Below are positions 2,313-61,313 of a DNA stretch of 64,000 bases, piece after piece. The position numbers and the translations under genes were made by a program. The notes under the pieces are model-generated. The model searched no databases and had not been told where the DNA came from. It was given only the letters and a program-made list of their open reading frames with translations. The stretch comes from Eledone cirrhosa (Eukaryota), in the NCBI GenBank assembly GCA_964016885.1, contig OZ024740.1, positions 229,524,001 through 229,588,000 of the forward strand. Reading direction: 5' to 3'. The number at the start of each line of letters is the position of its first letter. The first letter of the stretch is position 1.

Positions 2313-3099
2313 AAATAGGAATATCTGTCTGTTTGTCTGTCTGTCAGATCACGGAAACTCGAGAACCACCCAACCGATTGTTTTCAAACTTTACACATGT
2401 AATACTTATGGTCCTGTGAGTGTTTTGAGCAAAAAGAATTTCAAATTTTCAATGCCCTAGGGGCCGCATTAGGCAATTTAGCAATCTCTCTCTCTCTCTC
2501 TCTCTCTCTCTCTCTCTCTCTCTCTCTCTCTCTCATAGTCTTTCCCGTTTTAGATAGATACATAGATATAACTTTGCGCTTTTATAATATCTGTCTGTAT
2601 GCCTGGATGTCTGCATTACGACATTATGATGTAGCTGTGTGTGTGTGTGTGTGTGTGTGTCTGTGTGTGTGTGTGTGTGTGTGTGTGTGTGTGTGTGTGT
2701 GTGTGTGTGTGTGTGTGTGTGTGTGTGCGTGTGTGTGTGTGTGCGTGTGTGTGTGTGTAACGTTTTTCGAAATATTTACTTCTGCGTTCACAGATTGATT
2801 TTTTTTAGTTCAGAAGATCCCGTTAAGGGTGAAAGCAGCGATTCTTGCTTAAACTTTAATCTGTTATTTTAATATATATATATAGCAGATATTTAGATCG
2901 AGAAGTCACCCACCGCATAATGCACAGCTGAGGAATTTGAAAAACGTATAATCAACATAGTTCGTAACATCAAGTTCCATAAGAATAGTGCACGGCGGAC
3001 CAAATATCTCAAAAGTTTCAGCTCCACCATCAAAAGCATGGAAAAATGCCAGGATTTACTTGTGCCCTCGGACAAAACTGGTAATGTATACTTGGTTGA

Positions 3100-4850
3100 C
3101 CGTTTTACATACAACGACTGCCTCGCGAAAGAGATTAAGAAAAACTATAGACCACAGGACGGAAAAATTTAGATAATATTAACGCCACAACTAAAAGTAT
3201 ACTGACCGGGCTAGGACTAGAGGATAGGACCGAGGTATATGTACCTAGAAAACCACGGATAATCTATTAAGGACCATATATTAGACTTAAAACTAAACTA
3301 CCGGTTATGTTAATAGCACCCTCCAAATCTGACCTAGGCAGGACCAGCAAGAATATTATAGATAGGATACTACCGTACTTAGAAACAAAACTAAGCTTAG
3401 CCTATGGACCTCCACTAAGGAGGTAATTGACTGGTTCTCGTTAATAGGTGACAAACAACAAGTAAATTTTATTCAGTTAGACATAGATAGCTATACGCGT
3501 CAGTATCTCCGATACTAGTCAATAAGGCCCTCATAAGCGCCATGGCCAGATCTAGCCTCACTAGGGACGAGACCAACCTCATAGTAGCAGCCAGAAAGAC
3601 GCTAATTAGATTCGAAGACAAGTTATGGGAGAGGAGGACAGACCCGACAGTTTCGATATCACCATGGGGTCGAGTGACTCGGCGCAGGTGACCGACCTTG
3701 TGGGGGATATATCTCATCTATAGGCTAACGGAGGAGTTCCCGGTGATCAGAGGTGGAATATACAGAGACGACGCACTTTTCACCTTCCGTTCCATTAACC
3801 ACAGTCAGATGGAGAGTATGAGGAAGCGCATATCGCATTTTTTAAACAACACGGCTTAAACGTGACAATTGACACTAGCACTAAGACGGTCAATTTCCTG
3901 GACGTTACCTTGGAAATGAATACGGGCATCCACAGACAATACCATAAGCCCAACGAAAACCTGCAATATGTGAACAGGCAATCGAATTGAAGCCATAGTT
4001 AAAGGGGTATCCAAACGCGTATCCACCCTGTCGTCGAACGCAGACGTGTTTAAACAACACGCCGAATATTATAATGAGGCACTGCGCAGGGCCGGTTACA
4101 CAGACACCATACTATATACCCCGGACAGAGAAGAGCCAAGTGATGAGGCGTGCAGAAATGCCAATAGCGGAGGCGCCTCCTTAGGTAGAAGAAATGACCC
4201 GGTAGCAGTCTCTAGGAACACAAATAGCAACACAACTAACATTAATGACACAGGACCAACCGGAGATAGGGCAAAGGCACCCATAGGAGCCAGACCACAC
4301 AGTACGCGGAGCATGGGCCTGGAACGCACACTGCATGCTCCCCGGCAACTGGGACCAGGGACAGGACATCGACAATACGACGGAGCACACGCCAAGGAGC
4401 ACGCCCAGCCCGGTTGTAGTGGTGCAGCACCGACAGCAGCATCACATAGACCTAAGGGGAATAGACGTATAGCTGACCACATAGAACGACGTAACTTTAT
4501 AACTGTAGGGCATAACCCCGACACCCATAGCGGGAAAATAGATAGAGACAACATCGGGATGTAATTGGCTTGGGCGGAGCACAGGACAGACATCGGGTCC
4601 AGGACACACCAACACGAATCTAGACACACGAAGGAACAGATCTAAGGCCGTTACTTGTTTAATGCGCCTTACTCCAACATGTACACACCAACGTGCCAGG
4701 AATTTTTTCGAGCGTTGGATGAGTGCTTTCCGCCGACGAACAAGTACCACAAAATCTTCAACCGCCACACGGTGAAGTTTTCCTTCTCCACAGCACCTAA
4801 CATGGCCGACTACATGGCTAAAACTAACGCGGTGAAGATGGCACACAATG
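3100..4850 (+). pseudogene. PLE reverse transcriptase, disrupted by frameshifts and stops
   Basis: GGIYRDD (YRDD 3761-3772), NFLDVTL, YHKPN, YNEALRRAGY, FNAPYS...HKIFNRHTVKFSFSTAPNM. Confidence 0.85.
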
Positions 4851-4965
4851 GCCGAGAACCGCGACGACAGAATGACCGTCTTTCGGAGCGCGGAGAACCA
4901 CCCAGCGACCGGCCCTCAAATGACACCCCGGCCCAGAGGCGACCAGAGCGCCCGCGGAGGGTGGC

Positions 4966-5712
4966 GTGGTCCAACTCCGAGAGGGAAATAGTGGCATGGG
5001 GGAGACAACAGTGTCGGCGGAACAACACCCTGAGAACCTTGAGAGGGCCATAACAGATCGAGGCCCGGACATCGGATGCGTAAGAACTGACAACAGAACT
5101 TGTAACTGCAGAGCGGGCACCCAATGCCTCCTACAGGGAAAATGCTTGATGAAGGACCTAATATACAAGTGTGTGGTTACAACCCAAAACGCGCGTCGCA
5201 CCTACATCGGCGCAACATCCACGACCTTTAAATCGCGGATGTATAATCACACGAATTCCTTTAGGGACCGTAGCAAAAGGCACTCCACTAAGTTAGCGGA
5301 CCTGGTGTGGGACCTGGTGTGGGACCAAGGCACTCCGTACGCCCTGGAATGGAGTATCGTTCGCCATGCGAGGGCATATTCGGCCGGAAGTAGAAAGTGC
5401 CGACTATGCCTACACGAGGCCATGGAGATAGTCAGATTGAAAGATGACGCGGTCAACCTGAAGTCTGAAATTATCATGACCTGCAGACACCAGAGAAGAT
5501 GCACATTTGCAGCATGGAATCCTCCGGTGCGCGGGCCAGGGGCATGGGAACGGGTACGCACAGACCCGAATGGCCCAACGGGATTAGGGCACCTGACGCT
5601 ATGCCTCGATGACATTGTGCGACCCGTGAGGCAAAACATATGTAAACCAGGGGCGCACCTGACCGAGCACACAACATTGGGCAGATACATCGCCTGGGCC
5701 GGGACCGGCTAA
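4966..5712 (+). pseudogene. PLE GIY-YIG endonuclease segment
   Basis: CNCRAGTQC, LIYKC...YIGAT...FKSR...H, CRLCLHE, NLKSE...CRH; out of frame with the upstream RT segment. Confidence 0.88.
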
Positions 5713-58820: not shown

Positions 58821-59171
58821 CATGGAACTCCTTTAACCATCTTTTGATCTTATATTATATATATATATATATATATATATATATATATATATATATATAT
58901 ATATATATATATATACATACATACATACATACATACATACATACATGCACATATATATATACATACACATATCTCTCTCTATATATATTGTTATGATATG
59001 ATCGGAAATGTAACAAGCTGTTATCACATACATCTCATATAGAGGAAAAATATGTAATGCGTCGTATATCACAACAGCATCAGTAATAATGTTTGTTATT
59101 ATTTTTGTTATTATTAATTCGACAGTTCCATATGAGTTTCTACTGTATAACTTGGCGTACCTTCCTGTTCC

Positions 59172-59379
59172 TGTGAATTGGCAGTATCGGTAGAGGGTCG
59201 GACACCATGCTTTGACGCATAGAATTACGGCCCTTGCCATTCTGAGTTCAAATCCCGCCGAGGTTGACTTTGCCTTTCATCCTTACGGGGTCGATAAAAT
59301 AAAGTACCAGTAATACACTGGGTAATTTGCTGGCCTTGTGCCAAAAGTAGAAAAAATTATTATTATTATTATTATTATT
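59172..59379 (+). mobile_element. S1 SINE ending in (ATT)8
   Basis: Consensus match; tail ggccttgtgccaaaagtagaaaaa(att)8. Confidence 0.9.
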
Positions 59380-61313
59380 ATAAATTTAGATCAATCGAAA
59401 GCATTCGATAGGGTCGACCATCGGTATCTGGAGTTTGTCCTCAAAGCAGCTGGCTTCGGCCCTGTCTTTAGAAGCTGGATCGTTGCAATGCACAGCGGCA
59501 CACGCTCGGTGGTCAAGGTTAATGGCCATCTCTCGGAACCATTTGGGCTCTCCCGATCGGTCCGTCAAGGGCGCCCTCTCTCTTCCCTTCTGTACGTATT
59601 GACTCTCGAGCCTTTACTGCGGAAGCTGGAGCTGTTGCAGGGCATCCCGCTCGAACCGGGACGTGGAAAGGCGGTGTCGGCTTATGCGGACGACATCACC
59701 GTGATGGTGTCGAACACCTCAGAAATCGAGGTGGTCGACACCTTATTGAAGGAATATGAAAGGTTGACAGGAGCCAAACTTAACCCGGAAAAGTCGGTGG
59801 GCTTGCAGCTCGGAACCTGGAGAGGCAAGCCCATGCCGTCCAACAGCGTCGTGGGGCTCTGGACGGACGGACCAGTAAAGTTGCTCGGGGTTTGGTTCGG
59901 ACCAGACCTCCAGGTGGAAAAGAATTGGGACGAGGTAACGAGCAGAGTAGCCAGTCTCACCCAAAAATGGGCTGGGAGGAAGCTATCACTGAAAGGTCGC
60001 GCGGAGGTGGCGAATGCGTACATCGCGTTCGTCATCTATTACCGCCTAACCGTCGTGCCTTGCCCCCGTCCGCGCCTCGTCAAGTTGGAACGGCTCCTCT
60101 TCAAATTCTTGTGGAGGGGACAAGTTCCGTTGGTGAGGCGGTCCATCTGCTGCCAGCACCCTCTACGCGGAGGGCTGGGCATGCCGTGGCTAATGATGCG
60201 CAGACATGCGTTGAGGCTGCGACATCTCAAGATATTCTGTCTCAATGGTGAACAGGTGTGGTCGCCGTTTATCAGACGGGCCTTTCCGCGGCTCATTTCT
60301 TTGACTGAGCTGCAGTCCTGGGTCAAGAAGAGACCGAGACTGGGTGACTGGCACCTGGAATGTTGCCAGGCACTCACTGCCCTCTACCAAGCGGGCAATG
60401 CGATCAGTGGAACTTCCACTCTCGAGTTCTATAGAGGATTAGTGGTGGGCAAGTGCGATGACGCACTCGGAGAAGCTTTGGGCCTCGACGAAGTCGACCT
60501 GACCAGTCTGTACCGGAGGACTTTTGAGCCGGGGACGATGGACAATTTCCAGAAATCCCTCGCTTGGCAGTGCTACCGGGGGGCACTGCCGGTTCGGGAT
60601 AAACTCTACAGGCACGGAAGTGCTGTCAGACGGACCTGCCCAAGATGCGCACAGAACGACGAAACCGTTCTGCACGCACTTGTCCAATGTCCGTGCATTA
60701 CTGACTTGTGGAGTTATGTCGAACAGCTACTGTCGCGTGTGGAACGAATCCGGTTATCGGCCGAGTCCATAGTGAAGATCGAGCCGCCACCTTCCTTAGG
60801 TCAGGAAGAGCAGGACATTTTCCTCTGTCTGGTGGCAGTTGCGAAATAGATTATATGGTGGACCAGGTTGAAAGGACTAAAGACAGACACTTTTCTCTTC
60901 GGCCAATCCCTCATCAACTTCTTCAAGTTTCACCTGGAAAGGAGGGTGAGGGTGGAGAGAGAAGTCCTGCCCCCCAGTACATTTGCTAAAAGGTGGGTGA
61001 ATGTGGCGAGAATGGCTCGTGTGAATGGGCCTACTCTGACCATGCGCCTATAGGCTGGCTAACTTGAGGAGAGGGGTGCTCTCCTGGGTGCCCTAGAAGC
61101 GCAGGGTGGTTCAGGATTGGTGGGGTACCCGAATCACCCCAGGGTCGGCCACCCCCTATCGGGGAATTTATTTTGTTATATTTTGCATAGTTTATTTTAT
61201 ATTTTTATATTTTCATTGTTAAATTAGTCTTGCCATTGTGCACTTTTACTCGACCTTATTTTAAACCCCCACTGTCCCTGTCTTTAAATGAAATCATTAT
61301 TATTATTATTATT
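59380..61313 (+). mobile_element. 5'-truncated Tx1/L1 copy C
   Basis: RT from NLDQSKAFDRV to the C-terminus; premature TAG at 60847; different 3' UTR ending gaaatc(att)6. Confidence 0.93.

What the first reader, a model, noticed from the sequence alone, without database searches (positions are those of the whole stretch)
2885..61313. Retroelement families partitioned by microsatellite: PLE in TA, Tx1 and SINE in ATT, RTE in ATGT
Seen: most PLE/pLTR-like modules abut (TA)n, all four Tx1 copies follow (ATT)n, and the RTE-derived family sits against (ATGT/ACAT)n. Known: some Tx1 families (Kibi, Koshi) and PLEs prefer microsatellites. Inference: each family targets, and through its tail regenerates, its own repeat. 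Such a self-reinforcing niche system could help explain the extreme microsatellite load.
Basis: partly seen in the sequence, partly recalled or inferred. Interest (0 to 1): 0.72.

Follow-up and report, generated by a model that had tools for sequence, protein, structure and literature searches.

The report
Jumping genes sorted by microsatellite target
In this repeat-rich animal genome several jumping-gene families each sit in a preferred short repeat (ATT, TA or ATGT), likely because their cutting enzymes pick existing repeats; the preferences overlap, we found no sign that the elements add the repeat as a tail, and they likely explain only part of the genome's microsatellites.

Summary
The family-to-repeat associations are real and hold genome-wide. 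A very young Tx1-like LINE has ATT at 56 of 57 3' ends and at all full-length 5' ends read. Penelope-like (PLE) ends sit in (TA)n at 26 of 30 random copies (background 0.6%). An RTE-related 600-bp element prefers ATGT (16 of 29) but also uses TA (6). The partition leaks. The SINE needs only ATTAT (3 or more units at 17 of 129 ends). ATT is shared with Dong/R4-like LINEs on the other strand. Sister Tx1 families, including a fifth copy in this window, sit in ATCT. 'Tail regeneration' was not seen: resolvable junctions show target duplications (Tx1 10-21 bp, SINE 8-22 bp) and no added units. Arrays are instead carried inside elements: an RTE end carries an (ATT)n pad (at least 814 empty copies), and Tx1 fills the long ones about 15-fold more often. 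ATT and ATGT are only 2.4% and 5% of microsatellite bases; about a third of TA tracts abut recurrent repeat ends. Microsatellite targeting is known for Tx1, Dong and Hydra PLEs. This scan reported the Tx1/Dong and PLE/TA parts before on other DNA of this genome.

The parts
39396..45424 (+). Full-length young Tx1-like LINE (ORF1 39517-41706; ORF2 with APE endonuclease, RT, zf-RVT 41745-45161)
   Evidence: Pfam; 40 scored copies 100% identical over the last 475 bp
39374..39395 (+). (ATT)7 5' flank of the full-length Tx1
45425..45475 (+). (ATT)17 3' flank of the full-length Tx1
26384..27668 (+). 5'-truncated, 3'-broken Tx1 copy after (ATT)5
59380..61295 (+). 5'-truncated Tx1 copy (sister family) after (ATT)8 that follows a SINE; (ATT)6 at its 3' end
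61314..64000 (+). 5' part of a further Tx1 family starting after (ATT)6; carries a SINE at 61652-61834
8344..8739 (-). Fifth Tx1-clade 3' fragment in ATCT context, not ATT (exception to the finding)
   Evidence: family matches L157/L199
2885..7626 (+). Degenerate Hydra-clade Penelope-like element; (TA)6 before, (TA)17 after; 3' UTR carries internal TA and TG arrays (6144-7190)
   Evidence: GIY-YIG; DKT, CxCX5C, CxxC, CxH motifs; extent from 29 other copies
52401..54088 (+). 3' part of a second PLE family, hammerhead core 53969-53992, TA on both sides
   Evidence: 93.6% identical to the PLE of L247, whose RT has a DKG motif
54344..54709 (.). Inverted pair of hammerhead-bearing PLE-type ends between TA arrays
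54952..55089 (.). PLE 3' end (linked to a GIY-YIG ORF in L236) between TA arrays
8014..8136 (+). 3' terminus of a third Hydra family (also 2759-2871; upstream part at 24552-25066 on the - strand)
   Evidence: follows a Hydra endonuclease ORF in L212, L158, L213
17968..18130 (+). Module M1, fold-back unit between TA arrays (also 8996-9125, 17479-17572, 22191-22376, 46227-46436, 46503-46670); PLE origin not shown
   Evidence: no linked ORF or canonical hammerhead core found
56117..56828 (+). About 600-bp non-coding RTE-related element (R600) with a 112-bp terminal duplication; (GTAT)13 before, (ATGT)4 after
56843..57470 (-). Related non-coding element; its 3' terminus is nearly identical to that of an autonomous RTE
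19118..19601 (-). Older copy of the RTE-related family, 3' end about 10 bp from (CATA)12
18794..18974 (-). Fragment of the RTE-related family abutting ACAT
59171..59355 (+). Short SINE, the only one of 16 termini in the window with 3 or more ATT units
29716..30835 (-). Head-to-tail stack of SINE copies separated by ATTATT-containing junctions

Best explanation
Each family sits in a preferred short repeat on a fixed strand, likely because its endonuclease nicks a repeat that was already there, and the repeat on both sides is likely the split target plus a short duplication, not a tail made by the element. Shown: the flank associations, their strand polarity, target-site duplications that begin at the first base after the element, and arrays carried inside PLE and RTE 3' UTRs. 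Inferred: the Tx1 APE endonuclease nicks at |ATTATT and favours long arrays; the SINE borrows a Tx1-type enzyme and needs only ATTAT; Dong/R4-like LINEs enter the same arrays from the other strand; GIY-YIG enzymes of PLEs pick (TA)n; an RTE enzyme moves R600 into ATGT and, less often, TA. Feedback is inferred to come from splitting one array into two, from 10-20 bp duplications, and from carried seeds that lengthen by slippage, including cross-feeding (the RTE carries ATT pads that Tx1 fills). This builds stacks but adds little to the total microsatellite load, except possibly for TA.
For: Tx1: ATT before 30 of 30 and 31 of 31 full-length 5' ends (at least one locus is in both sets), at 7 of 8 true truncation junctions, and 2 or more units after 56 of 57 3' ends; background 0.06%. 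Duplications of 13, 10, 18 and 21 bp with no extra unit in L002, L021, L095, L112. SINE: duplication of 8 bp or more from the first downstream base in 16 of 20 young copies; two copies in a PLE 3' UTR with an 11-bp duplication (L272, L278). R600: 3' flank ATGT 16, TA 6, mixed 7 of 29; ATGT over TA against background p=2e-20. PLE-linked ends in TA 26 of 30. RTE-terminal pad: 680 empty with up to about 12 units, 134 empty with 13-23 units, Tx1-filled 6 short and 21 long with 1 shared, so long arrays exist without Tx1. Dong/R4-like ends lie on the opposite strand below 19 of 57 Tx1 copies.
Against: Tx1 3' arrays are long (median 45 bp) while most genomic AAT arrays are 12-18 bp, which a slippage-made tail would also give. 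Among tandem Tx1 insertions the 3' array does not shrink as the 5' array grows (by eye). No empty allele could be read. The clean junctions are a selected subset (4 of 57). One of 8 truncated Tx1 copies has no ATT at its 5' junction (L094), and an earlier AI note reports only 26 of 52. The SINE-Tx1 3' similarity is weak (top 0.2% of windows for the long variant, 7% for the short one). No enzyme was tested.
Confidence: 0.7

Rival explanations
1. Targeting plus tail synthesis: reverse transcriptase slips on a short repeat at the RNA end and adds repeat units at each insertion, so each family rebuilds its own landing site.
For: Long and fairly uniform Tx1 3' arrays (median 45 bp). Seven Dong-like 3' ends printed carry 15-78 bp of AAT. 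PLE ends end in TA almost always. 290 of 874 TA tracts abut recurrent repeat ends.
Against: No added unit at 4 of 4 clean Tx1 junctions or at the 16 SINE duplications. 13 of 29 R600 copies lack (ATGT)2 at the 3' end. Long ATT pads exist without Tx1 (134). Only 1 of 44 split host elements had TA near the break, and none showed a PLE with new TA in a TA-free host (weak).
Confidence: 0.18
2. Passive accumulation or survival bias: elements insert widely and persist in or near microsatellites, as proposed for Drosophila Waldo-A and -B.
For: Microsatellites cover 7.5% of the random sample and 12.6% of the window. Proposed for Waldo in PMC3812793 (passage).
Against: Copies 99-100% identical already show the pattern, at base-pair register and on a fixed strand. 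ATT is the rare repeat here (0.18%), yet Tx1 is found in it and not in TA (4.2%). Enrichment 50- to 1,600-fold for Tx1, PLE and R600.
Confidence: 0.05
3. The flanking repeats come mainly from RNA-DNA pairing: transcripts run into the donor's own flanking repeat and prime wherever a loosely specific nick exposes the complementary repeat, so the niche is inherited from the donor locus and not encoded by the enzyme.
For: The SINE accepts ATTAT in unique DNA while Tx1 is in long arrays. Sister Tx1 families with similar 3' ends use ATT or ATCT.
Against: Does not by itself explain the preference for long arrays downstream of interrupted nick sites (L002, L095, L021). Endonuclease determination is the published default (PMC4494074 passage).
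Confidence: 0.07

Closest known systems
Microsatellite-specific Tx1 families: Kibi (TC)n, Koshi (TTC)n, crocodilian (TTCC)n/(TTTC)n (PMC4494074, passages)
   Same: Two-ORF APE-type LINE, best PDB match human L1 ORF2, repeat on both flanks
   Different: Target is (ATT)n, and ATCT in sister families. Neither is among the targets named in the passages read.
Dong (R4 clade), TAA-targeting, in Bombyx, Anopheles and Biomphalaria (PMC3812793, passage); Dong-R4 active in Octopus vulgaris (PMC13282606, part 1 of 3 and passages)
   Same: Two families here have a C-terminal CCHC and restriction-like motif and lie in (TAA)n on their own strand
   Different: Here they share arrays with Tx1 in the opposite orientation; clade placement was not tested by a tree.
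Hydra clade of Penelope-like elements (PMC8557442, section 11 and passages)
   Same: C-terminal GIY-YIG, DKT, CxCX5C, CxxC and CxH; (TA)n insertion is described for almost all Hydra families
   Different: This copy is 4.7 kb or more (published: generally under 3 kb) because its 3' UTR carries TA and TG arrays.
Bipartite non-autonomous RTE elements such as RTESINE1/2 and WALLSI3 (PMC5786205, passages)
   Same: Non-coding, with a 3' terminus shared with an autonomous RTE
   Different: The 5' part was not matched to an RTE 5' UTR here. An ATGT/TA target was not found in one paper search.
Microsatellite seeding by CR1-L3 LINE tails in snakes (PMC6050309, passages)
   Same: Repeat class tied to a LINE family
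   Different: There the repeat is a 3' tail. Here it lies on both flanks and behaves as a target, and the Tx1 and RTE repeats are minor parts of the load.

Membership tests
Tx1 clade (L1 group) | ORF2 with N-terminal APE endonuclease, RT and C-terminal zinc motif; separate ORF1 | tested here: met
   Pfam; ORFs; closest solved relative L1 ORF2, E 2e-52
Tx1 clade (L1 group) | RT phylogeny inside Tx1 and not L1 proper | not tested
Target-specific Tx1 (Kojima criterion: one sequence type in over 20% of flanks) | Shared flank type in more than 20% of copies | tested here: met
   56 of 57 3' ends; all full-length 5' ends read; criterion
Hydra-clade PLE (2885-7626) | C-terminal GIY-YIG, DKT in place of DKG, CxCX5C linker, CxxC and CxH around E and N | tested here: met
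   Motifs read in the translations against the list
Hydra-clade PLE (2885-7626) | Canonical hammerhead in the 3' region | tested here: inconclusive
   The scan with spacer up to 30 nt found none in this copy; by eye a split core with a spacer of about 60 nt lies near 7410-7490
PLE (module M1) | Linked PLE ORF or hammerhead core | tested here: inconclusive
   None found among 45 random-sample hits; fold-back pairs in TA only
Bipartite non-autonomous RTE (R600 group) | 3' end shared with an autonomous RTE | tested here: met
   APE plus RT ORF in L095 and L105 runs into a 3' UTR that ends (L021, L035/L280, L105) in the terminus of 56843-56882; 85-88% to R600 over 34 bp. The RTE label rests on 30% identity to a window fragment recalled as RTE-like.
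Bipartite non-autonomous RTE (R600 group) | 5' part derived from the RTE 5' UTR | not tested
   No complete RTE 5' UTR was compared
Dong/R4 clade (neighbours F1, F2) | C-terminal CCHC plus restriction-like endonuclease motif, (TAA)n flanks | tested here: met
   Motifs read (pattern recalled); weak Pfam support; flanks
Microsatellite-seeding LINE (tail type) | Element-derived repeat tail present in all intact copies | tested here: not met
   Tx1 4 of 4 clean junctions, SINE 16 of 20, R600 13 of 29 without it; not resolvable for PLE, Dong or pure arrays

The most novel reading that the evidence does not exclude
The genome holds a food-web of microsatellite niches: an ATGT-targeting RTE spreads ATT, TG and TA seeds in its 3' UTR, these lengthen by slippage, Tx1 and Dong colonise the long ATT pads from opposite strands, and PLEs both target and extend (TA)n, so that retroelements drive a large share of the dominant TA load.
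Probability: 0.2. Interest if true: 0.7.

Novelty: new variant of a known kind. Interest (0 to 1): 0.45.

Why it matters
The young Tx1 family (ATT) and its sister families (ATCT) are a natural pair for asking how APE endonucleases change target. The RTE-borne ATT pad, with hundreds of empty and at least 26 filled paralogous sites, allows target-length preference to be measured in a genome. The result also separates two ideas that are often merged: targeting a microsatellite and seeding one. Here targeting is clear, seeding is mainly carriage inside elements, and the link to total load is small except possibly for TA.

Tried and rejected
Empty alleles from public runs: four runs laid on 38900-46000; repeats were skipped and no joint spanned the element, so nothing was learned. 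Unequal crossing-over as the source of tandem Tx1 pairs: three pairs compared in full were 98.8-99.7% identical with differences along their length, so not recent duplications. Homology-guided 5' completion: 2 of 8 tandem pairs had 0 SNPs over the first 1.3 kb against a median 9.5 in 80 unrelated pairs, but the set as a whole was not significant (p=0.81). De novo TA at PLE insertions: 1 of 44 split hosts had TA near the break, and it was not a PLE. SINE 3' end derived from Dong, R600 or PLE: no terminal similarity. The library entry 'Tx1c' contains a SINE, so its counts are contaminated and were not used, except that the 12 of 19 long AAT arrays were read row by row. The neighbour count under-counted SINEs and was replaced. 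Window-only module counts are circular and were not used as evidence. Two of 120 random stretches did not exist and were dropped. Paper searches for the combination found no description of ATT-targeting Tx1 or ATGT-targeting RTE; the library lacks most subscription papers, including Kojima and Fujiwara 2004, and no supplements were read.
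Full report
Setting. The window lies in a 3.0-Gb assembly, likely an octopod (recalled SINE resemblance, not tested). Perfect microsatellites of 12 bp or more cover 12.6% of the window and 7.5% of 118 random 10-kb stretches (1.18 Mb, 0.04% of the genome). In that sample AT is 4.17% of the sequence, AC 0.97%, ACAT 0.39% and AAT 0.18%, that is 55%, 13%, 5% and 2.4% of microsatellite bases.

Tx1 and ATT. The element at 39396-45424 encodes APE endonuclease, RT and zf-RVT. All 40 scored copies (of 507 candidates) were identical over the last 475 bp, so my copy sets are the youngest members only. 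ATT precedes 30 of 30 full-length 5' ends found by a 5' search (includes the window's own copy) and 31 of 31 found from the 3' search. Of nine partial copies, one continues into other Tx1 sequence; 7 of the other 8 have ATT or an ATT-initiated duplication at the truncation point. Two or more ATT units follow 56 of 57 3' ends, and the last begins ATC-ATT. Random non-repeat positions are followed by ATT in 0.06%. Four window copies follow (ATT)n as stated, but a fifth Tx1-clade fragment at 8344-8739 (-) is in ATCT context. Of 13 matches to a Tx1 terminal motif in the random sample, 7 were in ATT, 3 in ATCT, 1 in TA and 2 in neither, one of these probably spurious.

Target or tail. Where an interruption lies near the junction, the 3' flank repeats the end of the 5' flank exactly: 13 bp (L002), 10 bp (L021), 18 bp (L095), 21 bp (L112), with no extra ATT unit. 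Three tandem cases repeat 24-59 bp, also without extra units. This is a selected subset, and the long 3' arrays (median 45 bp) could also come from a tail. A paralogous test helps. An RTE family carries an (ATT)n pad just before its 3' end: 680 empty pads with up to about 12 units and 134 with 13-23 units; Tx1-filled pads number 6 with up to 11 units and 21 with 11-21 units, one counted twice. Long pads therefore arise without Tx1, and occupancy is roughly 13% of long against 0.9% of short pads (my arithmetic; the length classes are not exactly matched and longer pads are missed). That fits a preference for long existing arrays. It does not exclude a short tail. Reads gave no empty allele.

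Who shares ATT. Downstream of 57 Tx1 copies lie a Dong/R4-like 3' end on the opposite strand in 19, another Tx1 in 15, a SINE in 7, the RTE end in 2, and something else in 14. The Dong-like proteins show a CCHC knuckle and a restriction-like motif (pattern recalled, Pfam support weak). Of 19 random AAT arrays of 24 bp or more, 12 abut Tx1, Dong or SINE. The ATT niche is thus crowded and stacked, but not exclusive.

SINE. In the random sample 100 of 129 3' ends start ATTAT, but only 17 have three or more units; by the 10-bp rule 7 are in ATT and 10 in TA. Sixteen of 20 young copies have a duplication of 8 bp or more starting at the first downstream base; 1 of 20 is in a long ATT array. The SINE targets a motif, not a microsatellite. 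Its end resembles the Tx1 end weakly, so use of a Tx1-type enzyme is an inference.

PLEs and TA. The element at 2885-7626 has the Hydra diagnostics. Its 3' UTR carries TA and TG arrays, and one internal array varies from 2 to 23 units among 30 copies. Other modules link to PLE ORFs elsewhere or carry hammerhead cores; M1 is unassigned. In the random sample 26 of 30 ends of linked modules and 19 of 23 M1 ends are followed by TA (background 0.6%). A library-free test found that 290 of 874 TA-containing tracts have at least one side that recurs elsewhere and ends at such a tract there too (23% of flanks against 0.5% of control positions). This is a lower bound, not all of these families are shown to be PLEs, and it does not tell target from product. 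(TA)n insertion of Hydra and Naiad elements is published.

RTE-related family and ATGT. An autonomous APE-RT element ends in the terminus of window 56843-56882, which is 85-88% like that of R600. One truncated copy of it starts directly after an (ATGT)n array (L068). Young R600 copies have ATGT at 16, TA at 6 and mixed purine-pyrimidine tracts at 7 of 29 3' ends, and ATGT at 14 of 29 5' ends. In the random sample the 3' split is ATGT 5, TA 6, other 8 of 19. TA sites outnumber ATGT sites 33 to 1, so the preference is strong (p=2e-20) but overlaps the PLE niche. Only 8 of 210 ACAT arrays abut R600.

Mechanism. Shown: associations, polarity, duplications, internal carriage. Inferred: target-primed insertion at enzyme-chosen repeats, with feedback from array splitting, duplication and slippage of carried seeds. 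Even 10,000 Tx1 insertions at 20 bp each would add 0.2 Mb, under 0.01% of the genome (illustrative arithmetic). The load argument therefore survives only for TA.

Comparison and verdict. Microsatellite targeting is known for Tx1 (TC, TTC, TTCC, TTTC), Dong (TAA) and Hydra (TA). An ATT target for Tx1 and an ATGT preference for RTE were not found in my searches, which cover open-licence papers only. Papers were seen as passages or named sections, not whole. Earlier AI notes of this scan already describe the Tx1/Dong sharing and PLE/TA association in this genome; I had reached those readings before looking, and took from them the lead on ATCT sister families. The additions here are the side-by-side test of the niches, the negative result on tails, the RTE-to-Tx1 cross-feeding and the limit on load. 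Interest 0.45; new variant of a known kind.

Noticed in passing
L021, L035/L280, L042, L095/L006, L105 (RTE 3' UTR): A young RTE carries (TG)n, two (ATT)n arrays and (TA)n in its 3' UTR and is hit repeatedly by Tx1. In L105 and the L042 tandem the 5' flank is the first array and the 3' flank the second, so the part between is lost.
   Followed up: partly
L119/L296 and L123/L297: Adjacent Tx1 copies have no SNP over their first 1.3 kb but differ further 3', and the array between them repeats the upstream flank in full; possibly 5' completion on the neighbour. 2 of 8 pairs only.
   Followed up: partly
window 8344-8739 (-); L137, L157, L167, L205: Sister Tx1 families end in (ATCT)n instead of (ATT)n.
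   Followed up: partly
window 20140-20600 (-): Truncated RTE-like copy of another family with a short CTGAGT repeat at its end and an apparent 11-bp duplication; not in a microsatellite and absent from the random sample.
   Followed up: partly
window 25985-26315 (+) and 57690-57950 (+): Two other tRNA-like SINE families; the first ends in (ATG)n at 11 of 17 random copies but has no repeat at 29 of 31 5' ends, so it looks like a true tail.
   Followed up: partly
window 11574-15123 and 15290-15990: Minisatellite arrays with 43-59 bp and about 38-bp units containing TGT and TG runs.
   Followed up: no
window 66-576, 29284-29473, 973-1078: Tandem copies of a 122-bp unit related to a dispersed repeat.
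   Followed up: no
window 51507-51945 and 49345-49990: Long fold-back (inverted) units next to TA arrays; the first contains a hammerhead-like core at 51718.
   Followed up: no
window 9672-9871: A 200-N assembly gap lies between a long TA tract and a long GAA tract.
   Followed up: no
L170, L173, L179; L189, L225; L247: At least three further PLE-like lineages with C-terminal GIY-YIG occur in the random sample besides many Hydra families.
   Followed up: no
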